A stretch of 64,000 nucleotides of DNA from a virus (IMGVR_UViG_3300009161_000021); one strand, 5' to 3'; positions 4,339 to 62,954 are shown, counted from the stretch's first letter. Notes: generated from the letters alone by a model not told the origin. Translations and numbers: made by a program.

Positions 4339-4543
4339 CGATCACCTCAAATTCATTCTCGAACATCAGATGCTTCTCATCACGCCACAGGACCCGCCAA
4401 GAGCCGTGTGCTCCTGGATGCAGGCGTCGAGGGGTGGCCACCCGTTCAACGAGAACGCCGGGCGGGCAGTCGATGGGGCAGGGGTGATGAAGCTTGAGAT
4501 ACTGCTCATTCGGCTTCACCAGGAGTCCGGGTCGAAGAGTCAT
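4325..4543 (-). CDS. MKPGDL-like small SH3/KOW protein
   Basis: LRPGLLVK start; C-terminal FEVIDG encoded by the junction-like GAGGTGATCGATG. Confidence 0.6.
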   Translation of the reverse strand: MTLRPGLLVKPNEQYLKLHHPCPIDCPPGVLVERVATPRRLHPGAHGSWRVLWRDEKHLMFENEFEVIDGQV

Positions 4544-5661: not shown

Positions 5662-5678
5662 TTGCTGCTCCTCCAATC

Positions 5679-46796: not shown

Positions 46797-47532
46797 ATGA
46801 ATCCGGTGGTGCCTCTGGACGTTCCAATGATATGTTGTAATCCTTTCGAAGTAAATCCTTCAGCTGCTTCTTGAGACTGTCGGTCTCATTGGGAAAATCG
46901 TTGTCGAGATATTCCTCCGCCTGAGTGATCACATTCTTCTTAACATCGACAAGGGACGTGTAGTTCTTAATCAGCTTCGCAATTTCGCCGGCATACACCT
47001 CCATATCGATCTTGGGCTTCTTGTCTTCCTGCTCGATGAGGAATCGAAGAGACTTCCTACGAAGACTTTCATTCGCGGCAGACTCTGAGTCTTCTTCGGC
47101 GGATGAGGTCGCTTTCATAAGTGCCTTGTTAACCTGCGATTTGACGGGCTCCTTAACGGGATCAGGCGCTTTCGCTTTCTTTTTTGCAGTCGCTCCGGCT
47201 GCAGCGGCTCCCGGAGCGGGTGCTGGGGTCCCTGGAATTGCGGGGGCAGCTCCGGGGGCAGCTGCGGGAGCGGGAGCGGGGACTGCTGGCGTGGCAGGCG
47301 CAGCGGGAGCTGCAGGCACTGCAGGAGCTCCGGGAGCCGCTGCAGCCGGGTCAACTGCGGGGGCAGTGCCTGCAGCAGCCGGATCGGTCGCTGGAGCTGT
47401 GGCAGCTGGATCTGCTGCGGGAGCAGTTGCGGCCGGATCAGCAGGAGGCGCCTGCTCGTAAAGATTTGACAACTTTGTGTTATACATTTCCTGAATAACA
47501 AGTCGTCTTAGCACCGAACGGCTTGTGGTCAT
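46753..47532 (-). CDS. Ala/Pro-rich putative virion protein
   Basis: RSVLRRLVIQEM leader; APAADPAA repeats. Confidence 0.6.
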   Translation of the reverse strand: MTTSRSVLRRLVIQEMYNTKLSNLYEQAPPADPAATAPAADPAATAPATDPAAAGTAPAVDPAAAAPGAPAVPAAPAAPATPAVPAPAPAAAPGAAPAIPGTPAPAPGAAAAGATAKKKAKAPDPVKEPVKSQVNKALMKATSSAEEDSESAANESLRRKSLRFLIEQEDKKPKIDMEVYAGEIAKLIKNYTSLVDVKKNVITQAEEYLDNDFPNETDSLKKQLKDLLRKDYNISLERPEAPPDSYAVGAGAGGGGGAA

Positions 47533-48254
47533 TTTGCAGCCTCCATCATTCTCTCGACCTTCCTGATTCGATCTTCAATGATTGACCACTTGAGCTCTTT
47601 CATCATCGAGAAGATGTACGATTTTCTATCCTTCAGGTAATCTCGATAATAAGAGTGTTCCCAGCAATCGAGAACAATCACTGGGTAGCTCGAAAATGGA
47701 ACTCCCGAGTTATGAAGATCCACCACAACGTTGACGTAGCGCTTGAGGAACATGTTGTACGCCATAACGACCCAACCGTTCCTTGAGCTCATCGCGCAGG
47801 CGATAAAGTCTCTTTGCCACGCGTCGAAGCTGCCCCAGTCACGTTCGATGCGCATGTAGGCGAGCGAGTCCATCGCCAGGGTCGATCTCACATCAGAGAT
47901 GTTCTCAAAGAACATTCCATGGAGAAATGCTGCATTTAGATTGTGTGTCTCGTCCATCTTCATGTTTCTGAAGGTGGAGTTGTTTGGGTTCGCGTTCTCA
48001 CGATCCGCAGAGTCTAGACCCGCAGATATCTCATTGAGGGATTTTATGTACCCGTCCATGAGCTCCTGGTGCGCAGCCTTGTTTTCCTCGCTAAGCTTCT
48101 CAGTCCTCAGGTCGAATTTGGTTGTCGACACGACGTAAGCTTCGTTCAAAGGCTTCGGGCTTTGCTCCTGCTTCTTCGGAAGAGTCAGAGATTCGCGAAT
48201 CACGTCAACGATCTCTTTCTCAGATAGACCTGCGATCTTTAATGGGTCTTTCAT
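47529..48254 (-). CDS. Fe/Mn superoxide dismutase-family protein with N-terminal leader
   Basis: HQELMDGY, LHGMFFEN, WGSFDAW, GWV, DCWEHSYYRDY. Confidence 0.88.
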   Translation of the reverse strand: MKDPLKIAGLSEKEIVDVIRESLTLPKKQEQSPKPLNEAYVVSTTKFDLRTEKLSEENKAAHQELMDGYIKSLNEISAGLDSADRENANPNNSTFRNMKMDETHNLNAAFLHGMFFENISDVRSTLAMDSLAYMRIERDWGSFDAWQRDFIACAMSSRNGWVVMAYNMFLKRYVNVVVDLHNSGVPFSSYPVIVLDCWEHSYYRDYLKDRKSYIFSMMKELKWSIIEDRIRKVERMMEAAK

Positions 48255-50048: not shown

Positions 50049-50474
50049 CTAAGTATCTTCCACTTCGCATAACTGACGAACCTTGATGCCAGCATTTGTA
50101 AGAAGAGTGATTCCAGACTCGTCTCGATACCTGTCGATGTAGATGACCTCGTCTATCTTCGCGTTTATGATCGCTTTCGCGCACATGCGACAAGGGTTGA
50201 GGCTCACATACATCTTCTTCCGTTTCGGGCTGTTGAAGTCAAGCTTGATAAGAGCGTTCACTTCAGCGTGAATGAATCCAGAATCTCCAGGATTGTCGGA
50301 CTCCCGACAATTCGGTCCTCCGGCATGATCGCCATTGTACCCGAGTGATAGGAGCTGCGTGTTGTCATCAGCTACAATTATCGCCGCAACTTTGAATGAG
50401 GGATCTGAGGATCTCTTGGAGATCGTAAAAACGACATCGGACCAGATCCGATCCCAGGAGGGTCGTGAGCTCAA
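50049..50474 (-). CDS. dCMP deaminase
   Basis: LGYNG, HAEVNAL, PCRMC zinc motifs. Confidence 0.9.
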   Translation of the reverse strand: MSSRPSWDRIWSDVVFTISKRSSDPSFKVAAIIVADDNTQLLSLGYNGDHAGGPNCRESDNPGDSGFIHAEVNALIKLDFNSPKRKKMYVSLNPCRMCAKAIINAKIDEVIYIDRYRDESGITLLTNAGIKVRQLCEVEDT

Positions 50475-51319
50475 GTGTTCACCGCGTCGAAGATTGTTTC
50501 AATGCTAACGTTGGGAGGCAAGCTGAATCCAGCAGCTTTCCGATGACCGCCACCGCCGAACTTCTTCGCGACCTCGCTCACGTCAGCGTCATCATGGTGC
50601 GCTCGAAGGCTTGCCTTAACACGGCGGCTCTCATGATCGTAGTACCAGATCACGGAGAAATCGCACTTTGGAGAGAGAGCAGCGCCGATTTCAGACATCC
50701 AATGTGAAGAGTTAACCACGAGCACGCTCTTTCCAGCGATCTTCCGATGTGAGGCGTTCTTCGTAATCTTGGAGATAACGGTCTTGGAGTAGGCAAGGAT
50801 GTAAGCACCGCGCTCCTGGGCACTGTCCACTTCGGAATCGTCGAGATACTTGTCGAACTCCTCAAAATCAAACTTTACCATGTCGAAGGCCGCAGCGAAC
50901 TCCTTGGAGTAGGGGATCTCCCACTTCCAAAGGTCACGATCCTCGATGAACTTGATGAGTCGAGGAGCTTCCTTCCCGGGATGGAAGAACTTCCAGGCGA
51001 GCATCGCTCCGCTGTGGTTCATGTCGAAACGCGTGCATGAGACATCATGGAGCTCGACCATAGCTGACTTGTGGTGGTCGATGATGAGGAGGTTCTTGGC
51101 CTCCTGCATCATACGCTTCGTGGTGGCGTTATCGTAGGAGAAGTCCAGGACGACCACATTCTTTCCTGTCACGTCAGGTGGAGGCTCTCCGTGCTTCGCA
51201 GCGAGGTACTCCGCCCGATCACCGAGCAGCTTCCAGGCTGCGTAAGCAGCCCCAAAACCATCGGTGCAGTTTTCATGATAGATGACGAGATCGACGCTGG
51301 ACGGTTCTAGCATATTCAC
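50471..51319 (-). CDS. DHH/DHHA1 phosphoesterase
   Basis: YHENCTDG, VLDF, IDHH, GGGGHRKAAGF. Confidence 0.88.
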   Translation of the reverse strand: MNMLEPSSVDLVIYHENCTDGFGAAYAAWKLLGDRAEYLAAKHGEPPPDVTGKNVVVLDFSYDNATTKRMMQEAKNLLIIDHHKSAMVELHDVSCTRFDMNHSGAMLAWKFFHPGKEAPRLIKFIEDRDLWKWEIPYSKEFAAAFDMVKFDFEEFDKYLDDSEVDSAQERGAYILAYSKTVISKITKNASHRKIAGKSVLVVNSSHWMSEIGAALSPKCDFSVIWYYDHESRRVKASLRAHHDDADVSEVAKKFGGGGHRKAAGFSLPPNVSIETIFDAVNT

Positions 51320-51339
51320 GTAAGCTCCGGACTAAACTA

Positions 51340-51915
51340 TTATCCCACGTTCTCGTTCGGATTGCACATTATCGGGTGATGCCTGAAACACCTTGGTTCG
51401 TAGAGATTCTTCCCACCGACCTCGATCTCCTTGTCATCGTTTGTGAGCTTCGCTGTGTAGTACGCATCGCTTCCGCAAGCTGGGCACACAGCAGGGCACT
51501 TTTCGACCTTCGTAGCGAACGGTAGAAGTGAGGTCACCTCCTCGAAGGGACGACACTTCGCGCTCAGATCAAGGGTCGCGATCAGCACGTCAACACCACT
51601 CCGCATGATCTCCAGGGCCGCTGGTGCCACCCCGTCTATCATGAAGGCTTCGTCTATGGCCACCGCATCAATATCACCCTTGATGCTTCTGAAGTGGTTC
51701 AGAAGGGCAGCTCCCGAGCTGACGCAGGTAGCAGGCCACTTGGCACCTGAGTGGGTGCAGATCTGAGATTGCTCGTATCTCGCGTCCATCGAGGGCTTGT
51801 ACGCTATCACCGTCCGACCCTGAAGCTTAAGACGCTCGATGGACGCGATCAGACGTGATGTCTTGGAGCCCCACATCGGACCACAGAAAATAACAAGATT
51901 TGGATTACCCTGCAT
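51340..51915 (-). CDS. tdk: thymidine kinase (type II)
   Basis: GPMWGSKTS, AIDEAF, CPAC lasso, YEPRC. Confidence 0.9.
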   Translation of the reverse strand: MQGNPNLVIFCGPMWGSKTSRLIASIERLKLQGRTVIAYKPSMDARYEQSQICTHSGAKWPATCVSSGAALLNHFRSIKGDIDAVAIDEAFMIDGVAPAALEIMRSGVDVLIATLDLSAKCRPFEEVTSLLPFATKVEKCPAVCPACGSDAYYTAKLTNDDKEIEVGGKNLYEPRCFRHHPIMCNPNENVG

Positions 51916-52309
51916 TCGTTCTCCCGTAATCATCCTCTATTATGATCGAACCGTCGTTCGACTTGTCGCCGATCTCAATGACAACACTTTCTTCGAGAGC
52001 CTCAAGTCTGTATGGACACTCGGATTGCACGTTGAAGACATCGCCTGGAGAAAGAATTCTCTCTTCCCAGGGATACTTCTCTGGCTTTTCAATCGTCCGC
52101 GAGCTGCCAAACGTCACCTTAACAAGTCCGCTCATTATCAGGAAGAACTCATTCTTAATCTTATGAAACTTCAGGCTCGTTCTATGGCCCTTCCTGATCG
52201 TGATGAGCTTTCCCTGAAAGTCAGCAGTGGAGCTCCAAACCTGAGCAGTGCCCCACGGCTTTATCTCGTTCGATGACTTGGTGACCCAAGCATGCTTAGG
52301 AGCCCTCAT
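51905..52309 (-). CDS. cupin, sugar isomerase/epimerase-like
   Basis: KPWG...GKLITI..G.RTSLKFH..KNE...SG...PGDVF. Confidence 0.75.
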   Translation of the reverse strand: MRAPKHAWVTKSSNEIKPWGTAQVWSSTADFQGKLITIRKGHRTSLKFHKIKNEFFLIMSGLVKVTFGSSRTIEKPEKYPWEERILSPGDVFNVQSECPYRLEALEESVVIEIGDKSNDGSIIIEDDYGRTNAG

Positions 52310-53312
52310 TAAAATCCCACCAATCAAGAGTCATCTTAAGACCATCCACAAACTTGACCTGCGGCTTCCACCCAAGAACCTGCTCAATGATCGTCACGTC
52401 CGCAAGAGTATCCCGCACATCGCCCGCGCGGACCGGTGCACTGTTCACCTCGAGGTTCGGAAACTTGAGACGAAGGAGGTCGAGGACTTCATTGTTCGAA
52501 AGTGACTCGCCCGACCCAACGTTGAAAGCGTGCCCGCGGAAGTCATGCTGAGATTCAGCTGCCAAACGATTCGCCCGAGCAACGTCCTTGACGAAGACAA
52601 GATCTCGAGTCTGGTATCCATCACCGTCAGAGCGAAGTGGACGTCCCTCCTTCAGAGCTGAGCACCACGCGGCGACTGCTGTCGAGTAGGGAGACTTGCC
52701 GTCCTGGCCGGGACCGTAGACGTTGAAGTAACGTAGGCAGACACTCTTCTGCTGGTAGAGTCGCCCGAAGAGGGTCAGGTAATCCTCGATCATCCGCTTC
52801 TGCAGACCGTACGGAGACTGAGGGTTGGAGGGCGAGAACTCGGTGGTTGGCAGCTGGTCGATCTCGCCGTAGACGGACGAAGACGAGGAGAACACGAACT
52901 TGGTGCTTCCACCACGAATCGCATCGAGGAGAGCAAGGGTGCGAGTGACGTTGAGATCGTTCGATTCGAAAGGAAGCTGGACGGAGTACTCAACGCGTGG
53001 CATCGCAGCGAGATGGAAGATGACATCGTAGAGCCCAGCCTTGGAGCGAGACAGAATCTCACGATGAGCGAAATCGCCCTCGATCACGAGAACAGAGCCA
53101 GCGACCCTTTCGGACTCAGGGTGCTTCAGCTCGAAAGCCCCAATAAGATCGGCAGGAACTGCTCGAAATGAGATTCCGTTGAGAGAATCAAGTGAGCCGT
53201 TGGACATGTCGTCGATAACGTCGACGATGTAATCGTTCATGATGAGCTCACGAACAACATGAGAACCGATAAAACCACATCCGCCCGTTACAAGGGCACG
53301 CTTGTTATTCAT
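52296..53312 (-). CDS. NAD-dependent NDP-sugar epimerase/dehydratase (extended SDR; GalE/WbpP-like)
   Basis: GGCGFIGSH, FHLAA, SSSSVYG, YGLQK (YxxxK), RYFNVYGP, RDLVFV. Confidence 0.92.
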   Translation of the reverse strand: MNNKRALVTGGCGFIGSHVVRELIMNDYIVDVIDDMSNGSLDSLNGISFRAVPADLIGAFELKHPESERVAGSVLVIEGDFAHREILSRSKAGLYDVIFHLAAMPRVEYSVQLPFESNDLNVTRTLALLDAIRGGSTKFVFSSSSSVYGEIDQLPTTEFSPSNPQSPYGLQKRMIEDYLTLFGRLYQQKSVCLRYFNVYGPGQDGKSPYSTAVAAWCSALKEGRPLRSDGDGYQTRDLVFVKDVARANRLAAESQHDFRGHAFNVGSGESLSNNEVLDLLRLKFPNLEVNSAPVRAGDVRDTLADVTIIEQVLGWKPQVKFVDGLKMTLDWWDFNEGS

Positions 53313-53314
53313 TT

Positions 53315-54313
53315 TTACCTCTTGAAGAAATGATAGCCCTGATGATTTGTCGAGAGAAGGTATCTCTGGGCAAGCTTTTGATCCTTCATCTTTCTAGCCC
53401 TAAACGAGCAGAGAATGTTTCTCCAGTCATTAACAAGCTGGTAGAAGGCTGGATCATCCATCTCGTCGCTGAGCTTGGGACTGATAAGCATGAAACCGTC
53501 GAGGAATTCGCCATCGGTCATCTTGTGAACCCGCTCCTCAACTCGCATCAGATCATGGATCGGAAAAGATCGAGGATATGCTGGCATCGGACGGCCAAGA
53601 TTGTCGCTTGAATTCGCAATCGCGTCCAGCATCTCGAAATCACGTTCATAGCAGTGGAGAGAATTTGATGTGTGTACGTACTCGCCAAGTTCGACGTTAA
53701 GCTCATTCGCCAGAACCTCCTGCATAGTTGTGAAAGCTGGAACATCGTATGCGATCCCAAGGATGATGTCGCTGGATCGCATGTTGACGTGAAGGTGGAG
53801 CTTACCCTCGCGAATGAAGAATTGGAGCGCGAGAGTGCATGGAACGTCCTTCACGGCGTAGATCGAATCGTCAGGGGTCCTGATATGAATAACAGCGCGG
53901 CGACTGTCAGGATCGCGCTTGAGCTCGCTCTTGACGTACTCCCACTGATTCAGCCCACCATCAGCGATCCTCGGATGAAGCTTGAAGATTCGAGCGCCGT
54001 ACGCGGAGTTTGCAGTCTTTCCATCATCGCTGATGTCCTTCCAAAAGGAAGCGTATCTCGAGATCCATTCGGTGGAGTTGCTTCCGCTCATGTACCAGAG
54101 AGTCTCAGCCACAAAGTAGGAGAGCGAGAAGTTGCGAGCTTCGATGTAAGGAAGGCGATCTCGAACGTTCTTGATCCTGAACTGAACCCCCAGCTTCTCC
54201 TTGATCTTCATGCCACGAGGAGAAGAGATGAAATCGGACTCATCTCGAATCAAACGGCAAAGATCGACGTAAGCATGTGAGAAATTTCCGTAAGTCTTCA
54301 TACCTTCAGCCAC
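53315..54313 (-). CDS. thymidylate-synthase-fold enzyme, dCMP hydroxymethylase-like
   Basis: NSAYG, DSRRA, catalytic DVPCT, MRSSD..LGIAYD with Asp at the ThyA Asn177 position as in T4 gp42, SLHCYER. Confidence 0.85.
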   Translation of the reverse strand: MAEGMKTYGNFSHAYVDLCRLIRDESDFISSPRGMKIKEKLGVQFRIKNVRDRLPYIEARNFSLSYFVAETLWYMSGSNSTEWISRYASFWKDISDDGKTANSAYGARIFKLHPRIADGGLNQWEYVKSELKRDPDSRRAVIHIRTPDDSIYAVKDVPCTLALQFFIREGKLHLHVNMRSSDIILGIAYDVPAFTTMQEVLANELNVELGEYVHTSNSLHCYERDFEMLDAIANSSDNLGRPMPAYPRSFPIHDLMRVEERVHKMTDGEFLDGFMLISPKLSDEMDDPAFYQLVNDWRNILCSFRARKMKDQKLAQRYLLSTNHQGYHFFKR

Positions 54314-54813
54314 TCCCTAATTTCGAGCGTCTCGCGCTCAAGATTCTCGTCATCAACCCAGATCGTGAGAACCTCGCACTTCGTCCAGCCCTCGAACTCC
54401 TGATAGAGGCTGTCAAGCCCCTCGAGCGCGTGAGCGTCAATGTAACTGTGGAGGTCGTCGCGTATCCCATTATAGCTCTTCCGGCGACAAATGACAATCT
54501 TACCGCCGGCTTCAGCAAACTTCTCGTCAACCTTGCGAAGGACGACGTCATCCGTCTCACGATTGAAGTGCCTCGAGTAGACCCATTCCGATGCATAGTT
54601 CCTGTCCATGATGGCGCTAGCCTTTGTCTGGCAGAGAAAATCTGCTAGAAACGTCGCTCCGTACGTCAGCAGATTCTTGAAGTAGCTTGGATCACGAAGG
54701 TCGGTGAACCACTCACCCGAGTTCTTAAAAACAGGAATCCCGAGCTGCCGAGAAAGCTCGGCTGCCATCTCCGACTTTCCGCATCGATCTGGACCCTCGA
54801 ATGTGATAAGCAT
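54298..54813 (-). CDS. dNMP kinase (thymidylate-kinase-like)
   Basis: FEGPDRCGKS P-loop, MDR...SEWVY. Confidence 0.85.
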   Translation of the reverse strand: MLITFEGPDRCGKSEMAAELSRQLGIPVFKNSGEWFTDLRDPSYFKNLLTYGATFLADFLCQTKASAIMDRNYASEWVYSRHFNRETDDVVLRKVDEKFAEAGGKIVICRRKSYNGIRDDLHSYIDAHALEGLDSLYQEFEGWTKCEVLTIWVDDENLERETLEIREWLKV

Positions 54814-54814
54814 C

Positions 54815-55870
54815 TTAACCTCGCTTTGCGTGTTGCTCGATCAAATCAATCTTATGCGACGGGCTGAAATCTACAACCTGGCGAAGCGCTTCCTCCTGAC
54901 GATTGATGATATCGGTCCGCTCAGCAACGCTCATCTTGGAGAGACGGGTCACAGCTCGAACGACGTCCTCTGGATCGTTGACGAGGAAATCGCCCAGACC
55001 GACCGGACGAGCGTGAACGTACTCGTTCGGGATGAGAGACACAACCCCCGCCTGAATCGCTTCCGTGAATCGCATCGTGATGTTACCGTAGGGTGTGTAA
55101 TCGTCGCGGGTGATGTGAGTCACAGCGATGGAGTTGTTGATGACTCCGAAGATCTCCTTGTAAGCGAGGCGGGTACCAAAAGCGACGTGAGGATTCTCCT
55201 GCAGAAGAACGCTCGGGTCCTTACGTTCCGGGCTCCTTTCGAGCCAGTTACCCCACACCTTCGTCTGAATCCCGCGAGTCCTGAGGGAGTGACTCGGGAC
55301 GGAGTAGTACTTTCGGAACTGCGGATCGCGATCGTAGTTGTTACCGACGTAAGTGTAGTTGTACGAGTACTCAACGGGCTTGAAGAGACGCCGAGCCGAA
55401 GAAGCCCATGGCATCGAGATCCTGGCTCGGGTCTGTTCACGCGGCTTGATGCAAGCATCAGCGAGTTGCGCGTTGGGCCATCGAAGCTCCTCCTCCGGAG
55501 TCATCTTCAGATCACCGTCATGGATGATGATGGGAACTCCCTTCGCGTGATAGTGATCGAGGAGCTCGCACTGACGCTTGTAATCGGGCTCAGTAGCACG
55601 CTCGCCGCCGATGGACTCGTCGTTCTTCCAGGTAGGCCAACGCCACTCGACGAAGAGAACGTCTCCCTCGGGGAATCCAGCGTCATCGTACTCGACGCCA
55701 GGGTATGGCTCATCATCACGACGCTTCTGCACCTGAACAACAGTATGTCCGTGACGATGCATCTCGTCCACGAGATCGACTCGACCACCACGATAGTGGT
55801 CAGGAGTGTTCGAAACTGTCTGCTTCTCGAATGGGGTCACGAAACCCCAGAATGAATATAGAATTCGCAT
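54815..55870 (-). CDS. T4 beta-glucosyltransferase-like DNA glycosyltransferase (GT-B)
   Basis: SIAVTHITRDDY..GNITMRFTEAIQAGVVSLI matches BGT AIAALIIGDKNY..NFITLRVWETMASDAVMLI; HDGDL at the BGT catalytic Asp region; YVGN, VWGN, LVND motifs. Confidence 0.8.
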   Translation of the reverse strand: MRILYSFWGFVTPFEKQTVSNTPDHYRGGRVDLVDEMHRHGHTVVQVQKRRDDEPYPGVEYDDAGFPEGDVLFVEWRWPTWKNDESIGGERATEPDYKRQCELLDHYHAKGVPIIIHDGDLKMTPEEELRWPNAQLADACIKPREQTRARISMPWASSARRLFKPVEYSYNYTYVGNNYDRDPQFRKYYSVPSHSLRTRGIQTKVWGNWLERSPERKDPSVLLQENPHVAFGTRLAYKEIFGVINNSIAVTHITRDDYTPYGNITMRFTEAIQAGVVSLIPNEYVHARPVGLGDFLVNDPEDVVRAVTRLSKMSVAERTDIINRQEEALRQVVDFSPSHKIDLIEQHAKRG

Positions 55871-55878
55871 CTTTTACC

Positions 55879-58800
55879 TCACATAACCTTGATTTTCTTA
55901 CCCTTTGTCGACAACCCGAAGTCAGACCGATCGACCTCGGCAACGCAGAGCGTGTATGGTTCAAAAGCAATCTTACCGTCCCAGTCCCACATGAACATCT
56001 TTTCCGTGTTTCCAGCCTCACCCATCACCTGAAGCATGAGATAGGGCTTCCCGTTCTTCGTCTTCTTCTCGACAGAGCTCACGATAACGAACCAGTAGAC
56101 ATCAAGTCTCTCCCAGTTATCGATGGAGTAAACCTCCTTGTCCTTAAATTTCTGACGAAGTTCGGTGGAGACCAGGGAGATTGGATCCATCTTGCCCGAG
56201 AGCTCGATCTGCATCAGGGCAATCTCGCGACGGGTCCACTCGGGCATGCCCTCGGTCTCGACAGTGAGCTCGCGGAACTTCTTGATGCCGCGCTGTGGAT
56301 CCTTCTTCGCCCACTTCTTGATGTCGTCAGCATTCTCGATGATGACGTGGTGCATCTGCTTCCAGGACGAGAACTGCTTTCCGCTTCCAACGATTCCCAT
56401 CGAATCGAACGCGTTTGCCTTGATGAGTGCCTCGAGAGCGCGCTTGTTGAACTTGGAGGGTCGCCACTGACCGTCCTCCTTCCAGAGCATCTCCTCGATG
56501 CTGCGGTAAGGTCGGCATGCCACGATCTCCTCGATTGCTGTCTCACCGACTCCCTTGATAGTGTTGAAGGATGGGATGAGGAGCTTACGCTCAGAGTCGA
56601 CCGACCACTGATTCGTGGAGAGGTTGATGTCGACGTTGCCGATATCGTACCCCATCTTCTTCACATCGGAGATCGCCTGGGCACGATCGTCAGGGTTACC
56701 GATCATCGACTCCATGTAGGCGCAGAGCCACTCGGATTCGAAGTACGTGAGGAGCCAGGCGCAGTAGAAGGAATCGATAGCGTAGGCCAGGGCGTGGGAG
56801 AGGTTGAACCCGTACCCCGCGAAGAAGAGGATGTCGTCCCAGAGCTTAGAGGCGACGGATTCCCTGATGCCATTGCCCACCGCGCCGTTGACGAAGTTGT
56901 CCTTCATCGCTTTCGCCTTCTTCATCGACTCCTCAGGGTTACCGCCCTGACGCTTCAGGATGTTCTTTCGAACCTTGTCGCACTCGGACTTTGGGAACCC
57001 AGCCACCACGTTGCAGAGCTGCATGAGCTGCTCCTGGAAGATGATGCATCCGAATGTCGGCTCGAGGACCTGCTTGATGAGTGGATGCTTGTAGTCGATG
57101 TCTCGCGGGTTCGCCTTCGCCTCGAGGTAGAGCTTGTCAACCTTCGCCGCGAGCGGACCAGGTCGGAAGACCGAAGTCAGGGTGGCGATGTCGATGATCG
57201 ATCGTGGCTTGGCGTTCTGGAAGAGACGCTGGGCACCCTTGCTGGTGAGCTGAAAGACACCTGGCGTTCGGGATGTTGCCTCGTGGTAGACGTTCTCATA
57301 CACCTTCTGATCATCGAAGTTGATAACGTCGGTTGCCATGTGCTCATCGAACCACTTCTTGACCTCCTGGAACGTCGGGTTCTTGATCCCATGATGACGC
57401 TGAAGAATTAGCTCGATCGTTCGATGGATCGTTCGAAGCGTTTCAAGCCCCAGCAGGTCGAACTTAACCCACCCCAGCATCTCGAGATGCTTGTAGTTCA
57501 TGCCCTCGACCCAGGGGGTCTGCTGCTCTCCCTTCGCCATGATGAGTGGCATCCGCTCGGCAATACGTTCCGAGATGATGACACCACCAGCGTGTCGCCC
57601 CAGAGCCTTGTTCTGCTTGAACAGGACCTTGATGGATTCCGAGACCTGTGGGTGGCGATCGATGAAGTTTCGGAAGCTCTCGCAGTGCTCGTAGCTGTCC
57701 TCATAGGTCAGGACGAACAGGTTCTTGTCATCCCCAACCTTCTTCGTTGCGTTCATGACCTCACGTTCGACGGTCTTCAGGGCCTCGTTAACCTCCTCGA
57801 GCGGAATGTCATAGAGACGGGAGACGTCGCGGATGAGTGTCTTCAGCTTGAAGGTGTTGTAGTTCGAGATTGGAACGATGTTCTCGCCGCCAAACTTCTC
57901 ACGTAGGATCGAGAGTAGGAGATCTCGGTTCTCGACGTCGGTGTCGATGTCGGGTAGACCCTCGCGGTCAGGGGATAGGAATCGCTCGAAGAGCAGACCG
58001 TACTTGATCGGATCAACGTCAGTGATGCCGAGGACGTAGCAGACGAGGGAGCCCGCACCGGAACCTCGACCGACGCCGACGAACATCTGCTCCTTCGCAG
58101 CGGAGATGATCTCCTTCATCGTGAGGAAGTAGGACGAGAAGTCCTTCTGCTTGATGACATCGAGCTCGTACTTCGCACGTTCGACGTACACAGGATCGGT
58201 GTGGAAACCCTTCGCGATGAGGCCCTGCTTCACGGATTCGACAAGAGCCTGGTTCGCCGTCTTACCCTCAGGGATGACGTAGCTCGGAAGCTTGACGGAG
58301 CGATCAGGTTGGACGTCACCGATCTCCTCATGGGCGAGATGCCAGGTTCTCTCGACCGCCTTGCGAATGAGCTCCTCCTCACCACGGTAGAAATCATCGG
58401 TCCCGCGGGAGATCATGAACTCATCCCACACCTGCGATGCGTTCTTCGGGTAGAGCTCACACTTCAGCTGATCCTTGCTCTTTGGGATGGAATCCGCCGA
58501 GAGGTCAGCGTAGTTGAGCCAGCCGAGCTTCTTGTAGATCTCGCGCTCCTTCCAGTGCTCAGGGCGGGCATAGTGGGAGTCGCAGGTAACAACGAGCTGG
58601 TCGGTCATGCCCTGACGCTTCGCGAACTCCATGATCGCGCGGTTGACGATGTGCTGGGCTGGGAGACGGTTGAACTGCAGCTCGAGCATCACGTTCTTGC
58701 GACCTACAGCCCAAGCAAGACCATCGAACGAGTTACCGACTCGGTTGATGACGCGCTCCATGATCGACGGATCATTGAGAAGCCGGCTGTTCAGGCTCTC

Positions 58801-59502
58801 GAAGCTGTGCTCCTGCAGCTCGCGGAAGACCTCGAAGGCGAGCGGACCACCGATGCAGGCAGTGGAGACGATGAAGTTATCGTCCTCCTGTGCCTCCTTT
58901 AGCATCGCGAGGTCGACACGTGGGAACTTGTAGAAGCCCTCCGAGTAACCACGGCTCACGAGACCGAAAAGCCGTTCGAGACCCTTGCTGTGACGCGGTA
59001 GGACAACGAGGTGATGACGACGGTTGATTGGGTTGAAGTGCTTCGTGGACTTCGTCTCGTCCTCGTTCTCGATCGTGAGGGCGGAGGCGTCGGTGTCGAT
59101 GCCGATAGTCTCATCGTTCTCGTCGGTGACAGCGACGATCGGAGTCACGATGCTCTCGGGCTTCTCCTTCGCCTTCGCGTGGCTCTTGCGGTCTCGCTTG
59201 AGCTGCTGCCACTCGTGGTACTCAGCCTGCCAGGCATTGAGATCCGGGTGGATGTACATCTCACAACCCGGGATGAACTTCAGGTCCTTCCCCGCTTTTT
59301 TCAGCTTGTCAGCGTGAAGCCACGCGTGACCGAAGCCGTTCATCTGACCGTGATCGGTCAGGCTCCAACCATCGAGACCGTTCTCGAGGCAGAAGTCAAT
59401 GTGCTCTTGTGGGTAACCAAGTCCATCAAACGTCGAAAACCCCGAGTGCGAATGAATTCCAAAGAACTTTTCTGGACGTTTAAGTTCGCTAAGGTCTGAC
59501 AT
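55879..59502 (-). CDS. dnaE: DNA polymerase III alpha subunit (family C)
   Basis: PHP HSHSGFS.FDG, TDHG; GRGSGAGS, PDIDTD, HAGG, KFDLLGL, FAGYGFN.SH; C-terminal OB; no intein seen. Confidence 0.97.
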   Translation of the reverse strand: MSDLSELKRPEKFFGIHSHSGFSTFDGLGYPQEHIDFCLENGLDGWSLTDHGQMNGFGHAWLHADKLKKAGKDLKFIPGCEMYIHPDLNAWQAEYHEWQQLKRDRKSHAKAKEKPESIVTPIVAVTDENDETIGIDTDASALTIENEDETKSTKHFNPINRRHHLVVLPRHSKGLERLFGLVSRGYSEGFYKFPRVDLAMLKEAQEDDNFIVSTACIGGPLAFEVFRELQEHSFESLNSRLLNDPSIMERVINRVGNSFDGLAWAVGRKNVMLELQFNRLPAQHIVNRAIMEFAKRQGMTDQLVVTCDSHYARPEHWKEREIYKKLGWLNYADLSADSIPKSKDQLKCELYPKNASQVWDEFMISRGTDDFYRGEEELIRKAVERTWHLAHEEIGDVQPDRSVKLPSYVIPEGKTANQALVESVKQGLIAKGFHTDPVYVERAKYELDVIKQKDFSSYFLTMKEIISAAKEQMFVGVGRGSGAGSLVCYVLGITDVDPIKYGLLFERFLSPDREGLPDIDTDVENRDLLLSILREKFGGENIVPISNYNTFKLKTLIRDVSRLYDIPLEEVNEALKTVEREVMNATKKVGDDKNLFVLTYEDSYEHCESFRNFIDRHPQVSESIKVLFKQNKALGRHAGGVIISERIAERMPLIMAKGEQQTPWVEGMNYKHLEMLGWVKFDLLGLETLRTIHRTIELILQRHHGIKNPTFQEVKKWFDEHMATDVINFDDQKVYENVYHEATSRTPGVFQLTSKGAQRLFQNAKPRSIIDIATLTSVFRPGPLAAKVDKLYLEAKANPRDIDYKHPLIKQVLEPTFGCIIFQEQLMQLCNVVAGFPKSECDKVRKNILKRQGGNPEESMKKAKAMKDNFVNGAVGNGIRESVASKLWDDILFFAGYGFNLSHALAYAIDSFYCAWLLTYFESEWLCAYMESMIGNPDDRAQAISDVKKMGYDIGNVDINLSTNQWSVDSERKLLIPSFNTIKGVGETAIEEIVACRPYRSIEEMLWKEDGQWRPSKFNKRALEALIKANAFDSMGIVGSGKQFSSWKQMHHVIIENADDIKKWAKKDPQRGIKKFRELTVETEGMPEWTRREIALMQIELSGKMDPISLVSTELRQKFKDKEVYSIDNWERLDVYWFVIVSSVEKKTKNGKPYLMLQVMGEAGNTEKMFMWDWDGKIAFEPYTLCVAEVDRSDFGLSTKGKKIKVM

Positions 59503-59519
59503 GTTATCTCCTGTGTCTA

Positions 59520-59548
59520 ATCATATTACAAGACCCGTGCGTTTGCAT
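59520..59548 (-). promoter_or_regulatory. sigma70-type promoter for the dnaE-modification operon
   Basis: ATGCAA-17nt-TATGAT; AGGAG RBS follows. Confidence 0.7.
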
Positions 59549-59552
59549 GAAT

Positions 59553-60260
59553 TCAATTTTTTTCCCAATTCGGTATTTTTTCAGCGAACTCAACACTAAT
59601 TCTCTCGTATTCATCTCGTTGGATAAGTGTTACGCCAAAGTTGTATTCTTTGATAAAGTCCTCTACTTTCTCTTTAGCGCGACCGGTCCACAGTCCTTTT
59701 ACTTCATAAAATCTTTCGTCGTCCTCGACCCAGAAATCCGGAACGTATTGAAGACCTGATTTCAGAGAAAAACGTGAAGGTTCGTATTTCCACTTTTTTC
59801 CGATATACGTCAAATACCTCGCAAAGTTTGCCTCCCACGAACTTCTGAAAGTTGTTGATAAGTCATCTCGGAATCCAAATTTTGCAAATGACATTTTCTT
59901 AATTGACTCGATGTAACTTTCTCTTTGCGTGTGATGATTGCATTTGTATTTCCGTGAGCATGTTTCTTTTGTCTTACGTTCCATCTCGCCAGAAGACCAC
60001 CGTTCTTTCATTGATCGTGATAGCTTCTCACGATGCTCGGGCGTGTTTGGGTCCCACCCACTTTCATAGCGTCTTTTCATGGACTCGCTCTTCTTAAGGC
60101 GCTGGGCTTCATTCTGAACGTATGAACCGCGCTCGCGACGCAGCTTCACCATATTCGACTTTACACAAGTCGGGCAATTTCTGGATGTTTGGCGGCGAGT
60201 TACGTCAACGAACACCTCGAAACACGTTTCGCAATTCTTTTGAACACCCTCAGTTTTCAC
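59553..60260 (-). mobile_element. putative free-standing homing endonuclease (Zn-finger + NUMOD3-like repeats + PD-(D/E)xK domain)
   Basis: GTG 60260; CETC..CPTC; KKSESMK/EKLSRSMK; FRSSWEANFA...YEP...YVPDF...EVKG; visibly more AT-rich than flanks. Confidence 0.7.
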
Positions 60261-60286
60261 TAAAGTTTCAGCTTTTCTTTGTGATC

Positions 60287-60376
60287 TTAAAGCGGCAGCT
60301 TTCCGTCGAGGTGATCCCCCGCGTCCTTCGCCGCCGCCCTTACGATCTCCAAACTTTCTTTCGATAGTGCCATCAT
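60287..60376 (-). pseudogene. 29-codon ORF, possible truncated remnant
   Basis: TAGGAG RBS, MMALSKESLEIVRAAAKDAGDHLDGKLPL* ends where the AT-rich insert begins. Confidence 0.35.
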
Positions 60377-60420
60377 CGCTCCTACCGAAATTTAAGGACG
60401 ACCGTCCTTTTTTACTGGCC

Positions 60421-60705
60421 TCAGCCGCGGCCCGGACGCTTTCCACGATGACGCAGCTTGGAACGAGACATTCTCTCAGCGTCGTCATCGGAGACTCCAG
60501 ACGCTTTCAAACGAGCGAGTCGAATCTTCTGAAAGTCGTCCTCGTTTGTTGCTCCAGGAATGTCACCGAATTCGGTGCTATATCCACCACCGAACTCTTG
60601 CTCCTCAAGCTCGTCTGATTGGACTATGAGCTTCTTCTTGTCATGATCAACGCTCTCGATTTCCTCACGGATGATACGACGGAGCTGTGACTCGGTGATC
60701 TTCAT
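60421..60705 (-). CDS. small protein with MKITESQLRRIIREEIE leader
   Basis: Canonical motif copy; ATACTTA at 60722-60728. Confidence 0.75.
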   Translation of the reverse strand: MKITESQLRRIIREEIESVDHDKKKLIVQSDELEEQEFGGGYSTEFGDIPGATNEDDFQKIRLARLKASGVSDDDAERMSRSKLRHRGKRPGRG

Positions 60706-61444: not shown

Positions 61445-61828
61445 TCAGTAGCCGTTCTTGAGCCTCTCGCAGATCTTGTTGTGCTTCTTGACGTAGGCTG
61501 CATGCAGCTCATCGGGAGTGACACCGACTAGCTTCAGGGTCGTAAAAAAGTACTTCATCGCGTCCACGATCTCCTCGAGGAATGCCTCCCGATCGAGATG
61601 TGGGACCTCGGTCTGCCGGTGGGACTTCGCGTTCTTCAGCTCCTGGAGAGCTTCGAACATCTCCTCGACACCCTTCAGCGTGACGTCCCTGAGAAGGATC
61701 TGTGACTCCTTCTTAGTCACATCGACGGGCCACTGGGGATAGTAACCCTGGAAACGCTCGCAGAGAAGTTGCATGAACTCCTCGCGGAGCTCAAACATCT
61801 CCTCTAGCTTGTCAGTTGACGTCGGCAT
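61445..61828 (-). CDS. all-alpha (dimeric dUTPase / T4 gp56 dCTPase-like) dNTP pyrophosphatase
   Basis: EEMFEALQE...LEEIVDAMKYF...YVKKHNKICERLKNGY; ATG 61828. Confidence 0.8.
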   Translation of the reverse strand: MPTSTDKLEEMFELREEFMQLLCERFQGYYPQWPVDVTKKESQILLRDVTLKGVEEMFEALQELKNAKSHRQTEVPHLDREAFLEEIVDAMKYFFTTLKLVGVTPDELHAAYVKKHNKICERLKNGY

Positions 61829-62103: not shown

Positions 62104-62913
62104 TCAGCTCTGTCGAGCTGGGACCCACCAAGTGGTTCTTCCGTCGAGGGTCTCCTCCTTTATGATCTCCTCTCCGTCTTCGTCAGTCTTTCTTCCGTAG
62201 CAGAGAAGTTCATTTCCGTAACCACCCGACTCATCATCAAACCCCTTATATGATTTGATTGTTGCCCCCTGAGACTCGTATGAGGCTCTGAGCACTCTCT
62301 TAACGCTTTCGTTGAGCGCCTCGAACTCCTCCAGACTCAGTGAGTCGACCTTGCGATGGGGAGAGAGCCGGGCGAGCCAGAGGGAATCAGCCTTCACGTA
62401 GTTACCGACCCCAGCGACCACACCTTGATCCATGAGCGCCTGGGCGAGTGTCCACTTCGGTTTCCTCAGCATCGCAGTCTGGAATCGCTCGTGGCTCACG
62501 TCCTCAGCCAGCATATCAGGTCCGAGAGTCTTCAACTTCGCAGCCAGCGTCCGCCGGCCCTGGGACCACTTCAGAGTCCCGAAGTTCCGGGTGTCATTGT
62601 AGTATACGTCCGTCCCATCATCGAGGCTCAGACGCACTCTGGCGTGGCGCGATGCACTTCTGGACCAGTGACCTGTCATGCCCAGCGTCGACCAGATCGA
62701 TGAGTCACCGCCGTCGAGCAGGATGTAGATGAACTTGCCGTGGCATCCAGCTCCGACGACCCGTTTGGGCAGTTCGGAGACAAGATCGGCATGACCCTCG
62801 AAAGGCTTCCTGGCGTAACGACCCGACAGGATCTGGACACCGGTGATCGTTCGATCGGTGAGAGCTCGAGCGAGCCCTTCGGCAGCTAACTTGCACTCTG
62901 CACCCTCTGGAAT
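62104..62913 (-). CDS. Fpg/Nei DNA glycosylase with ATT start and zincless finger
   Basis: AGGAGG RBS then ATT-CCA-GAG (xPEG); HGKFIY, LGMTG, H2TH GVGNYVKADSLWLARLSP; C-terminus lacks the Cys ligands. Confidence 0.88.
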   Translation of the reverse strand: MPEGAECKLAAEGLARALTDRTITGVQILSGRYARKPFEGHADLVSELPKRVVGAGCHGKFIYILLDGGDSSIWSTLGMTGHWSRSASRHARVRLSLDDGTDVYYNDTRNFGTLKWSQGRRTLAAKLKTLGPDMLAEDVSHERFQTAMLRKPKWTLAQALMDQGVVAGVGNYVKADSLWLARLSPHRKVDSLSLEEFEALNESVKRVLRASYESQGATIKSYKGFDDESGGYGNELLCYGRKTDEDGEEIIKEETLDGRTTWWVPARQS

Positions 62914-62954
62914 TTCGCACCTCCTAATTCATATTGTATAGGAAGTTCCCGATT

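What the first reader, a model, noticed from the sequence alone, without database searches (positions are those of the whole stretch)
50049..59548. Complete cytosine hypermodification pathway with its own sugar-remodelling enzymes, coupled to a DnaE replicase
Seen: a contiguous minus-strand run dnaE - BGT-like glycosyltransferase - dNMP kinase - TS-fold enzyme - NDP-sugar epimerase - cupin - TK - DHH - dCMP deaminase, with small or overlapping gaps. Known: in T4 gp42 an Asp at the ThyA Asn177 position confers dCMP specificity, and this enzyme has MRSSDIILGIAYD. T4 uses kinase, dCTPase and BGT to make glucosyl-hmC. Inference: the phage substitutes C with hmC (or 5-hydroxy-C) and glycosylates it. 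The adjacent GalE/WbpP-like epimerase and cupin suggest a non-glucose sugar (e.g. galactose or GalNAc). A T4-type pathway paired with a family C polymerase is unusual.
Basis: partly seen in the sequence, partly recalled or inferred. Interest (0 to 1): 0.88.

Follow-up and report, generated by a model that had tools for sequence, protein, structure and literature searches.

The report
Phage sugar-coated hydroxymethylcytosine DNA pathway
An uncultured freshwater giant phage carries, beside its DnaE-type DNA polymerase, a T4-like gene set that most likely replaces cytosine in its DNA with hydroxymethylcytosine and then attaches a sugar, probably of the galactose type; it is a new variant of a known anti-restriction strategy.

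Summary
The observed gene run is real: dnaE, GT, Tmk-like kinase, TS-fold enzyme, GalE-like epimerase, cupin, TK, DHH and dCMP deaminase lie head to tail on the minus strand.

- **TS homologue.** It matches T4 gp42 at 14 of 15 active-site positions (D143, D169, G173, D177, R126, S167). It lacks the D169N, W80A and G173V changes of 5-hydroxy-dCMP synthases and the K/A pair of the ribo-specific MilA. This predicts 5-hydroxymethyl-dCMP.
- **Glycosyltransferase.** Its family is a specific remote homologue of T4 beta-glucosyltransferase (hhalign 96.6%; best structural Z 22.9). It lies within 7.1 kb of such a TS in 58 of 62 related contigs. In one contig the TS is replaced by a true gp42 orthologue.
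- **Sugar.** The epimerase keeps the GalE catalytic residues, and relatives insert UDP-galactopyranose mutase beside the GT. This points to a galactose-type sugar.
- **Cupin.** It is unassigned and found in only part of the lineage.

Nothing here is biochemically shown. The general concept (GT-B with ThyS and epimerase; a kinase-GT-TS triad) is published, and this scan noted a similar cassette in another genome (e1-4041967). I rate it a new variant of a known kind.

The parts
61445..61828 (-). gp56-like (MazG/all-alpha) NTP pyrophosphatase, the candidate dCTPase/dUTPase. The start is taken at the ATG at 61828 (M47 of the listed ORF).
   Evidence: phrog_12184 nucleotide pyrophosphohydrolase, E 3.4e-12. 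Weak Pfam dUTPase_2 hit. A 20-sequence family profile against T4 gp56 gives hhalign 94.7%, E 6e-8, over the last 69 residues; both proteins end in NGY. Found close upstream of the cluster in 26 of 62 related loci. Fused to a Tmk-like kinase domain in L060.
55879..59502 (-). DnaE-type (family C) DNA polymerase III alpha subunit, the replicase that would have to use hm-dCTP.
   Evidence: Pfam PHP, DNA_pol3_alpha, DNA_pol3_finger and HHH_6 domains; phrog_405, E 2.9e-226. Found beside the GT in 60 of 62 related loci.
54815..55870 (-). GT-B glycosyltransferase, remote homologue of T4 beta-glucosyltransferase; the predicted hmC-DNA glycosyltransferase.
   Evidence: AlphaFold model pLDDT 93. Best structural Z 22.9 to T4 BGT, with 306 of 351 residues aligned; other GT-B enzymes score up to 21.5. 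A 105-sequence family profile against T4 BGT gives 96.6%, E 5e-10, against 0.4% and 0.1% for two other phage DNA GTs. R267 and E270 align with BGT R269 and E272. D120 aligns with BGT D100 only in a low-confidence stretch. Lies within 7.1 kb of a gp42-signature TS in 58 of 62 loci.
54298..54813 (-). Tmk-like P-loop nucleotide kinase, the predicted hm-dCMP kinase.
   Evidence: phrog_761 thymidylate kinase, E 2e-11. Pfam AAA_28 hit is weak. 24% identity, E 1e-5, to RB69 gp45, the Tmk-like 'nucleotide kinase' that sits next to the GT and TS homologue in RB69. Present in 55 of 62 related loci.
53315..54313 (-). TS-fold pyrimidine hydroxymethylase, the predicted dCMP hydroxymethylase (5hm-dCMP synthase). 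It is MilA-like in overall sequence and gp42-like in its active site.
   Evidence: Pfam Thymidylat_synt, E 3.8e-33. Best solved relative is MilA, 5jnh, E 5.6e-45. Active-site residues in ThyA numbering are E58, Y94, R126, R127, D143, C146, T147, R166, S167, D169, G173, D177, H207 and Y209, which equals T4 gp42 at 14 of 15 positions. W80 is kept. The meaning of these positions comes from PMC13326640 and PMC5175136.
52296..53312 (-). GalE-like UDP-hexose 4-epimerase (extended SDR), the predicted supplier of the GT's donor sugar (UDP-Gal, possibly UDP-GalNAc).
   Evidence: Pfam Epimerase, E 2.6e-46. TIGR01179 galE is the best NCBIfam hit but below cut-off, 172 against 262 bits. Best solved relatives are T. 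maritima UDP-Glc 4-epimerase (E 4e-51), then WbgU and WbpP. GalE residues S124, Y149, K153, N179, R231 and R292 are kept, the gatekeeper Y299 is Thr, and there is no Asp-Glu dehydratase pair. Present in 49 of 52 closer loci and 0 of 10 distant ones.
51905..52309 (-). Small cupin of the PMI-like type; function unassigned and possibly accessory.
   Evidence: Pfam MannoseP_isomer C-terminal, 29.2 bits against a cut-off of 23.6. Model pLDDT 92.6. Only generic cupin neighbours: mini-PMI 7zvy Z 15.6, CapF cupin Z 15.0, seed vicilins Z 15.6. The canonical His metal ligands are not conserved. Present in only 26 of 62 related loci.
51340..51933 (-). Thymidine kinase (dT salvage).
   Evidence: Pfam TK, E 4.2e-34; NF003296, E 4.3e-40.
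50471..51319 (-). Phage-type DHH/DHHA1 phosphoesterase. Inferred role: breaking oligonucleotides down to dNMPs for salvage.
   Evidence: phrog_4771, E 1.2e-79; Pfam DHH and DHHA1. Atlas neighbours are all viral DHHA1 clusters. Present in 32 of 62 related loci. The proposed role is inference only.
50049..50474 (-). dCMP deaminase (dUMP supply for dTMP synthesis, as T4 cd).
   Evidence: Pfam dCMP_cyt_deam_1, E 6.3e-19; phrog_174, E 2.4e-39. ThyX was found in all 4 relatives' records searched.

Best explanation
This is a T4-type, pre-replicative cytosine replacement followed by sugar attachment on the DNA, carried by a freshwater jumbo phage that replicates with a DnaE polymerase.

Proposed steps (all inferred; no step is biochemically shown):
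1. The gp56-like pyrophosphatase (61445-61828) removes dCTP, yielding dCMP.
2. The DHH phosphoesterase may add dNMPs from degraded DNA.
3. The TS-fold enzyme hydroxymethylates dCMP to 5hm-dCMP with methylene-tetrahydrofolate.
4. The Tmk-like kinase makes 5hm-dCDP, and host NDP kinase makes the triphosphate.
5. DnaE incorporates the modified nucleotide.
6. dCMP deaminase, TK and a ThyX encoded elsewhere supply dTTP.
7. After replication, the BGT-related GT-B enzyme transfers a hexose from a UDP-sugar onto the hydroxymethyl group.
8. The GalE-like epimerase makes the donor, most likely UDP-galactose (possibly UDP-GalNAc).

Sister phages add UDP-galactopyranose mutase and so probably use galactofuranose. 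The cupin's role is unknown.
For: **TS homologue**
- It is identical to T4 gp42 at 14 of 15 active-site positions, including D143, D169, G173 and D177. All 46 TS homologues linked to this GT family carry D169, G173 and D177.
- The 5hodCMP synthases RB69 gp48 and RL38J1 gp216 differ at positions 80, 169 and 173. The meaning of these positions is taken from PMC13326640.
- R126 and S167 mark deoxyribose substrates (PMC5175136).
- In L041 the same DnaE-GT-kinase module carries a true gp42 orthologue instead: 51% identity, E 1e-85, 100/100 tree support.
- ThyX is present in all 4 relatives' records searched, so the ThyA-fold enzyme is free for another role.

**Glycosyltransferase**
- The family profile against T4 BGT gives 96.6%, E 5e-10. 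Controls with two other phage DNA GTs give 0.4% and 0.1%.
- T4 BGT is the top structural match by Z, at 22.9.
- R267 and E270 align with BGT R269 and E272.
- A TS lies within 7.1 kb of the GT in 58 of 62 loci. Three of the four exceptions are cut contigs.

**Supporting genes**
- The kinase is homologous to RB69 gp45. The same kinase-GT-TS triad is seen in RB69, DLP3 and RL38J1.
- The pyrophosphatase family against gp56 gives 94.7%. L060 has a kinase-MazG fusion protein.

**Sugar**
- The epimerase keeps the GalE catalytic residues.
- Glf is inserted next to the GT in 23 loci, including a distant lineage, L058.
- Phage GTs acting on 5hmC that need a partner epimerase have been shown experimentally in other clusters (bioRxiv 10.1101/2023.12.21.572611).
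Against: - There is no chemistry: no isolate, and only assembled contigs of the runs were available, so no modification signal could be read.
- The D169 and L143 diagnostics rest on a limited set of tested enzymes.
- In overall sequence the TS is no closer to gp42 (73 bits) than to the RB69 hydroxylase (88 bits).
- T4 BGT barely tops other GT-B enzymes by Z (22.9 against 21.5), and it is not among the 30 best Swiss-Prot AlphaFold matches.
- The alignment of the catalytic Asp is of low confidence.
- Much of the synteny is backbone collinearity within one phage lineage. The epimerase is absent from the 10 most distant loci.
- The genome reportedly has a separate 24.5-kb glycan island that the epimerase could serve instead (unchecked).
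- The dCTPase specificity is unproven.
Confidence: 0.62

Rival explanations
1. hmC is made and incorporated, but the GT, epimerase and cupin serve another glycan (virion protein, host surface or a small molecule). The DNA would carry bare hmC, or hmC modified by a different enzyme.
For: - Earlier unchecked notes report a large glycan-synthesis island with 7 GTs and 5 SDRs elsewhere in this genome.
- The epimerase is absent from the 10 most distant GT-TS loci.
- The GT's Swiss-Prot structural neighbours act on lipids and small molecules.
- An earlier agent judged the epimerase of a similar cassette to be a backbone gene.
Against: - The GT stays next to the TS and kinase even at 23-30% identity, in otherwise rearranged loci.
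- It shows specific homology to T4 BGT, a DNA enzyme, and not to GT4-type phage GTs.
- T4 itself places beta-gt directly beside gene 42.
Confidence: 0.14
2. The TS homologue is a flavin-dependent 5-hydroxy-dCMP synthase, as in RB69, DLP3 and RL38J1, and the GT attaches the sugar directly to 5-hydroxycytosine through an ether link.
For: - The gene triad is the same (Tmk-like kinase, GT, TS homologue) as in the 5hoC phages.
- RL38J1 uses galactose and encodes Glf.
- The window TS scores slightly higher against RB69 gp48 than against T4 gp42.
Against: - The diagnostic D169N change is absent.
- W80 and G173, both changed in the two 5hoC synthases compared, are retained throughout the core clade.
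- The 5hoC enzymes form their own well-supported clade, away from the window's clade.
- A sister phage uses a true gp42 orthologue in the same module.
Confidence: 0.07
3. The TS homologue makes another C5 product or a uracil derivative. Examples are 5-methyl-dCMP, or 5hm-dCMP that the adjacent deaminase converts to 5hm-dUMP, giving a glycosylated hmU (base-J-like) DNA.
For: - A dCMP deaminase and a TK are in the same operon.
- Several of the best tblastn hits in phage records are annotated or known hmU phages, such as SP8 and the Agathobaculum phages.
Against: - Asp at the L143 position correlates with non-methyl products.
- T4 also has cd and tk genes alongside hmC, so their presence does not discriminate.
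- ThyX in the relatives explains the need for dUMP.
- Asp177 argues for a cytosine substrate.
Confidence: 0.06

Closest known systems
T-even phage glucosyl-hmC system (T4 gp56 dCTPase, gp42 dCMP hydroxymethylase, gp1 kinase, beta-GT and alpha-GT, cd, tk)
   Same: - The logic is the same, and homologues are present for gp56 (profile 94.7%), gp42 (14 of 15 active-site residues), beta-GT (profile 96.6%, top structural Z), cd and tk.
- As in T4, the polymerase gene, the hydroxymethylase and the GT lie together on one strand.
   Different: - The replicase is a family C DnaE instead of a family B gp43.
- The hydroxymethylase belongs to the long MilA-like branch (about 330 aa, 28% identical to gp42).
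- The kinase is Tmk-like, not gp1-like.
- The GT has no BLAST or Pfam-level similarity to BGT.
- The phage encodes its own GalE-like epimerase, and relatives also encode Glf, which implies a sugar other than glucose.
- It is a freshwater jumbo phage with no cultured relative.
Glycosylated 5-hydroxycytosine systems of RB69, DLP3 and Rhizobium phage RL38J1 (PMC13326640)
   Same: - The adjacent triad is the same: Tmk-like nucleotide kinase, GT-B transferase and TS homologue.
- The window kinase is homologous to RB69 gp45.
- RL38J1 likewise uses galactose and encodes UDP-galactopyranose mutase.
   Different: - The window enzyme keeps D169, W80 and G173, so it is predicted to be a folate-dependent hydroxymethylase rather than a flavin hydroxylase.
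- The GT family is unrelated at profile level to RL38J1 gp215 and gp237.
- The sugar-nucleotide route is an epimerase, not the arabinose-5-P pathway.
Metagenomic phage 5hmC-glycan clusters with partner epimerases (bioRxiv 10.1101/2023.12.21.572611)
   Same: - DNA GTs whose activity on 5hmC depends on a co-encoded sugar epimerase.
- That survey already noted GT-B enzymes next to ThyS, epimerases and DNA polymerases in metagenomes.
   Different: - The clusters tested there make 5hmC after replication, through a methyltransferase and a TET-like dioxygenase.
- The epimerase-dependent GTs there (subclass II) are separate from the GT-B-fold subclass III GTs.
- The pre-replicative DnaE-linked lineage described here was not characterised in that work.
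MilA, CMP 5-hydroxymethylase of mildiomycin biosynthesis (PDB 5jnh, 5b6d)
   Same: - It is the closest solved relative of the TS homologue (E 5.6e-45, aligned over residues 6-320, including the C-terminal extension).
- It shares Asp at both the L143 and the N177 positions.
   Different: MilA has Lys133 and Ala176, which select ribo-CMP. The window enzyme has Arg and Ser there, as deoxy-specific enzymes do.

Membership tests
dCMP hydroxymethylase (T4 gp42 type, thymidylate-synthase superfamily) | TS fold with the catalytic Cys146, and Glu58, Tyr94, Arg166, His207 and Tyr209 | tested here: met
   Pfam PF00303, E 3.8e-33. All listed residues are present.
dCMP hydroxymethylase (T4 gp42 type, thymidylate-synthase superfamily) | Asp at ThyA N177 (cytosine specificity) and an acidic residue at L143 (non-methyl product) | tested here: met
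   D177 and D143 are present in the window enzyme. D177 is in all 46 linked homologues and D143 in 44 of them; the two exceptions have Asn. The criteria come from PMC13326640.
dCMP hydroxymethylase (T4 gp42 type, thymidylate-synthase superfamily) | Deoxyribose selectivity: Arg at position 126 and Ser at position 167 | tested here: met
   R126 and S167 are present. The criterion comes from PMC5175136.
dCMP hydroxymethylase (T4 gp42 type, thymidylate-synthase superfamily) | Makes 5hm-dCMP from dCMP and methylene-tetrahydrofolate | not testable with these tools
   Needs an enzyme assay or the in vivo plasmid LC-MS assay.
5-hydroxy-dCMP synthase (RB69 gp48 type) | Asn at ThyA D169 | tested here: not met
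   Asp is retained. Positions 80 and 173 also keep the folate-type residues W and G, whereas RB69 gp48 and RL38J1 gp216 have I or A at 80 and V at 173.
MilA/BcmA CMP hydroxymethylase | Lys at MilA position 133 and Ala at position 176 (ribose preference) | tested here: not met
   The window enzyme has Arg and Ser at these positions.
T4 beta-glucosyltransferase family (GT63) | GT-B two-Rossmann fold of about 350 residues | tested here: met
   Model pLDDT 93. T4 BGT is the top Z at 22.9 with 306 residues aligned, but other GT-B enzymes reach 21.5.
T4 beta-glucosyltransferase family (GT63) | Detectable sequence homology to BGT | tested here: met
   There is no Pfam, phmmer or tblastn hit. However, the 105-sequence profile gives 96.6%, E 5e-10, over the C-terminal domain, against controls of 0.4% and 0.1%. 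This makes it a remote relative, not a family member in the curated sense.
T4 beta-glucosyltransferase family (GT63) | UDP-binding Arg269 and Glu272, and the catalytic base Asp100 | tested here: inconclusive
   R267 and E270, invariant or nearly so in the family, align with R269 and E272. D120 aligns with D100 only in a low-confidence stretch.
T4 beta-glucosyltransferase family (GT63) | Transfers a sugar to hmC in duplex DNA | not testable with these tools
   The only support is gene linkage: 58 of 62 loci have a TS within 7.1 kb of the GT.
UDP-hexose 4-epimerase (GalE) | Ser-Tyr-Lys catalytic triad and UDP-binding Asn179, Arg231 and Arg292, without the Asp-Glu pair of 4,6-dehydratases | tested here: met
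   All are present. The sequence after the catalytic Ser is Ser-Ser. The gatekeeper Y299 is Thr.
UDP-hexose 4-epimerase (GalE) | Score above the curated equivalog cut-off (TIGR01179) | tested here: not met
   172 bits against a cut-off of 262. It is still the best NCBIfam hit.
T4 gp56 dCTPase/dUTPase (all-alpha NTP pyrophosphatase) | Homology to gp56 | tested here: met
   Profile match of 94.7%, E 6e-8, over the C-terminal 69 residues only. PHROG NTP pyrophosphohydrolase, E 3.4e-12. Specificity for dCTP is not testable here.
Type II phosphomannose isomerase cupin (PF01050) | Pfam score above cut-off, plus the conserved metal-ligand His and Gln residues | tested here: inconclusive
   The score of 29.2 exceeds the cut-off of 23.6. 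The usual His ligands are replaced or not conserved across 37 homologues. The fold matches are generic.

The most novel reading that the evidence does not exclude
A widespread lineage of DnaE-replicating freshwater and aquatic jumbo phages fully replaces cytosine with galactosyl- or galactofuranosyl-hydroxymethylcytosine. Such bases have not been described in any DNA. The transferase would be a large, unannotated family descended from the same stock as T4 beta-glucosyltransferase. The sugar would be switched between lineages by plugging Glf or extra SDR genes into the cassette, and the hydroxymethylase would be freely exchanged between MilA-like and gp42-like forms.
Probability: 0.4. Interest if true: 0.72.

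Novelty: new variant of a known kind. Interest (0 to 1): 0.58.

Why it matters
- If confirmed, it extends the T4 paradigm (pre-replicative hmC plus sugar attachment) to a distant, uncultured jumbo-phage lineage that replicates with a bacterial-type DnaE polymerase.
- It names a new DNA glycosyltransferase family: 480 clusters at 50% identity, none annotated.
- It predicts new DNA sugars (Gal, Galf and possibly HexNAc on hmC).
- Such enzymes are useful for 5hmC labelling and for understanding how phages evade restriction and CRISPR systems.
- The natural exchange of a MilA-like for a gp42-like hydroxymethylase within one cassette is a clean test case for the published active-site rules.

Tried and rejected
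- **Close relatives.** Megablast of the 9.5-kb region and tblastn of the GT against 50,697 phage records found nothing. DnaE and GroEL searches found only relatives at 46% identity or less, so no cultured relative exists.
- **Whole genome.** It is not held. ThyX and Glf could therefore be checked only in relatives' records.
- **GT against solved structures.** phmmer against PDB sequences gave nothing. Forced global hhalign against BGT failed. The shallow 37-sequence profile gave only 61%. The deeper profile was needed.
- **Cupin.** The PDB sequence search and two fold searches gave only generic cupin matches. I reject any specific sugar role as unsupported.
- **Operon signals.** The promoter and terminator scan was not above chance.
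- **Sequencing runs.** Only assembled contigs were available, so no read-level modification signal could be read. Seven short, 100%-identical contigs in a lake metatranscriptome may be DNA carry-over.
- **Rejected readings.** 5hoC (D169 retained), ribo-CMP chemistry (Arg and Ser present), and a 4,6-dehydratase role for the SDR (no Asp-Glu pair).

Full report
**Observation**

ORF listing and three profile libraries confirm a head-to-tail minus-strand run:
- dnaE, 55879-59502
- a 351-aa protein with a weak Glyco_trans_1_2 hit, 54815-55870
- a P-loop Tmk-like kinase, 54298-54813
- a thymidylate-synthase-fold protein, 53315-54313
- an extended-SDR NDP-sugar epimerase, 52296-53312
- a small cupin, 51905-52309
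- thymidine kinase, 51340-51933
- a DHH/DHHA1 phosphoesterase, 50471-51319
- dCMP deaminase, 50049-50474

Junctions range from a 29-nt overlap to a 20-nt gap. The kinase-TS junction is an ATGA overlap if the TS starts at the ATG at 54301. A consensus scan found no promoters or terminators above chance inside the run.

The DNA comes from a freshwater metagenome. Earlier notes and the sizes of relatives' contigs (up to 290 kb) mark it as a jumbo phage. No cultured phage is close.

**The TS homologue**

Its best solved relative is MilA, the CMP hydroxymethylase (E 5.6e-45).

A 2026 paper gives tested diagnostics in E. coli ThyA numbering (PMC13326640):
- N177D marks a dCMP substrate.
- L143D/E marks a product other than methyl.
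- D169N marks the flavin-dependent 5-hydroxy-dCMP synthases of RB69, DLP3 and RL38J1.

The MilA paper shows that Lys133 and Ala176 select ribo-CMP, while Arg and Ser select deoxy substrates (PMC5175136).

I aligned the window enzyme with E. coli ThyA, T4 gp42, RB69 gp48, RL38J1 gp216 and 45 homologues from related contigs. The window enzyme equals gp42 at 14 of 15 active-site positions: E58, Y94, R126, R127, D143, C146, T147, R166, S167, D169, G173, D177, H207 and Y209. W80 is also kept. The two 5hoC synthases differ at positions 80, 169 and 173.

Overall identity does not discriminate: 28% to gp42 and 29% to RB69 gp48. The call therefore rests on the active site and on context. The context is strong. 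In contig L041 the same DnaE-GT-kinase module (52%, 57% and 53% identity) carries a true gp42 orthologue instead, at 51% identity, E 1e-85 and 100/100 tree support. The two kinds of TS are thus interchangeable in this cassette. ThyX was found in all four relatives' records searched, which leaves the ThyA-fold enzyme free of dTMP duty.

**The glycosyltransferase**

It has no sequence hit in the PDB or in phage records. It does have many metagenomic homologues: 480 clusters at 50% identity with E <= 1e-3.

- The AlphaFold model is confident (pLDDT 93).
- T4 BGT is the best structural match by Z (22.9, 306 of 351 residues aligned), and T4 AGT scores 21.1. Other GT-B enzymes reach 21.5, and BGT is not among the 30 best Swiss-Prot models.
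- A shallow profile gave 61% probability against BGT.
- A 105-sequence profile gave 96.6%, E 5e-10, over the C-terminal domain. Two other phage DNA GT-B enzymes, RL38J1 gp237 and gp215, gave 0.4% and 0.1%.
- The invariant R267 and near-invariant E270 align with BGT R269 and E272. From memory of the BGT structural literature, not checked here, these are its UDP-binding residues.
- In a relaxed, low-confidence alignment the near-invariant D120 falls on BGT D100, within a shared D-x-x-x-P...WPN pattern.

I therefore treat the family as a specific remote relative of BGT. It is not a curated GT63 member.

**Linkage**

I examined 62 related loci: 58 from IMG/VR and 4 from assemblies.
- A TS homologue lies within 0.9-7.1 kb of the GT in 58 loci.
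- Three of the four exceptions are contigs cut short, and the fourth is a distant homologue.
- DnaE is present in 60 loci and the kinase in 55.
- The GT-TS pairing persists in loci where the GT is only 23-30% identical and the surroundings differ.

**The other pathway parts**

- *Kinase.* It is homologous to RB69 gp45 (E 1e-5). gp45 is the Tmk-like 'nucleotide kinase' that lies beside the GT and TS homologue in RB69, DLP3 and RL38J1.
As a family profile it matches the C-terminus of T4 gp56 dCTPase at 94.7%, E 6e-8.
- *Fusion.* In L060 a Tmk-like domain and a MazG/dUTPase_2 domain are fused in one protein just upstream of the GT and TS. This ties the two activities together.
- *Nucleotide supply.* dCMP deaminase and TK parallel T4 cd and tk. 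The DHH protein belongs to a phage-specific family. Its salvage role is my inference only.

**The sugar**

- The SDR keeps GalE S124, Y149, K153, N179, R231 and R292, and it lacks the Asp-Glu pair of 4,6-dehydratases.
- It has Thr at the gatekeeper Y299 position. From memory of the GalE literature, not checked here, a small residue there admits N-acetylated substrates.
- Its best solved relatives are UDP-Glc and UDP-GlcNAc 4-epimerases.
- It is present in 49 of 52 closer loci, in varying positions relative to the GT and TS, and in none of the 10 most distant loci.
- UDP-galactopyranose mutase is inserted directly beside the GT in 23 loci. One is the distant L058, whose order is Glf-kinase-GT-TS.
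- Other relatives carry extra or different SDRs.
- The closest relative's record has a Glf about 106 kb away from the cassette.

Together this points to a galactose-type donor: Galp here, and Galf in the Glf lineages. Sugar identity is the weakest link in the chain.

The cupin scores just above the PF01050 cut-off and resembles mini-PMIs and the CapF cupin no more than it resembles seed storage proteins. It lacks conserved metal ligands and occurs in only 26 of 62 loci. I leave it unassigned.

**Comparison with what is known, and novelty**

The logic is that of T-even phages, and T4 likewise has polymerase, gene 42 and beta-gt together on one strand. The differences are:
- a family C replicase
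- a MilA-like hydroxymethylase
- a Tmk-like kinase
- a GT with no BLAST-level similarity to BGT
- a phage-encoded sugar epimerase

Two papers limit the novelty. The first shows kinase-GT-TS triads and a galactose/Glf system in 5hoC phages (PMC13326640). The second shows 5hmC GTs that depend on partner epimerases, and its metagenome survey noted GT-B enzymes next to ThyS, epimerases and DNA polymerases (bioRxiv 10.1101/2023.12.21.572611). This scan also noted a similar cassette in another genome (e1-4041967). That agent judged the epimerase to be a backbone gene. My data partly agree, since it is absent from the distant loci, and partly qualify that view, because of the Glf insertions and the shuffled positions.

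**Verdict**

I rate it a new variant of a known kind. My confidence in the whole mechanism is about 0.62. Within that, I put hmC synthesis at about 0.8, DNA glycosylation by this GT at about 0.7 given hmC, and a galactose-type sugar at about 0.5.

Noticed in passing
window 62104-62916 (-): A Nei/Fpg-type DNA glycosylase gene is intact over its full length (50% identical to the 267-aa homologue in L003). It appears to start at an ATT codon five bases after AGGAGGT, giving the catalytic N-terminal Pro-Glu. Standard ORF calling reports only a truncated 191-aa ORF from an internal ATG.
   Followed up: partly
L041:11586-12350 (IMG/VR contig of 160 kb): A sister phage with the same DnaE-GT-kinase module carries a true T4 gp42 orthologue (51% identity) in place of the MilA-like TS. 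This is a natural non-orthologous swap of the hydroxymethylase.
   Followed up: yes
L060:7056-7928: One 290-aa protein has an N-terminal Tmk-like P-loop kinase domain and a C-terminal MazG/dUTPase_2 pyrophosphatase domain. It lies just upstream of the GT and TS homologues of a distant relative.
   Followed up: partly
L005:8880-10004; L058:8347-9447; 21 further loci: UDP-galactopyranose mutase (GLF) is inserted directly between or beside the TS and GT genes. L005 also has an NTP_transferase and a HAD hydrolase upstream of dnaE.
   Followed up: partly
L001:11094-11960 and L005:13870-14472: DNA methyltransferase genes (N6_N4_Mtase and MT-A70) are inserted inside the cassette in two relatives. This suggests a second, methyl-type DNA modification in those phages.
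   Followed up: no
L001:1-9659: The dnaE gene of a 257-kb relative is broken into several ORFs. Intein_splicing domains flank the finger domain, so this is an intein- or insert-ridden DnaE.
   Followed up: no
window 47529-48254 (-): A 241-aa protein has only the C-terminal Fe/Mn superoxide dismutase domain. It is conserved 2-4 kb downstream of the cassette in 44 of 62 related loci.
   Followed up: no
window 59553-60488 (-): A 311-aa protein lies between the gp56-like gene and dnaE. It has weak hits to DUF7487 and to Holliday-junction-resolvase and endonuclease families, so it is a possible nuclease.
   Followed up: no
window 29189-30205, 36195-36980, 37698-39293, 39533-40363, 1024-2349, 4540-5676 (all -): The rest of the window encodes a UvdE UV-endonuclease, a sigma-70-type factor, a GroEL chaperonin, a FEN-type 5'-3' exonuclease, an ATP-dependent DNA ligase and a T4-type RNA ligase.
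   Followed up: no
window 51402-60573: Seven short contigs (151-191 nt, 100% identical) from a lake-water metatranscriptome lie on TK, the cupin, the kinase/TS junction, dnaE and the 60.4-kb region. This could be in situ expression or DNA carry-over.
   Followed up: partly
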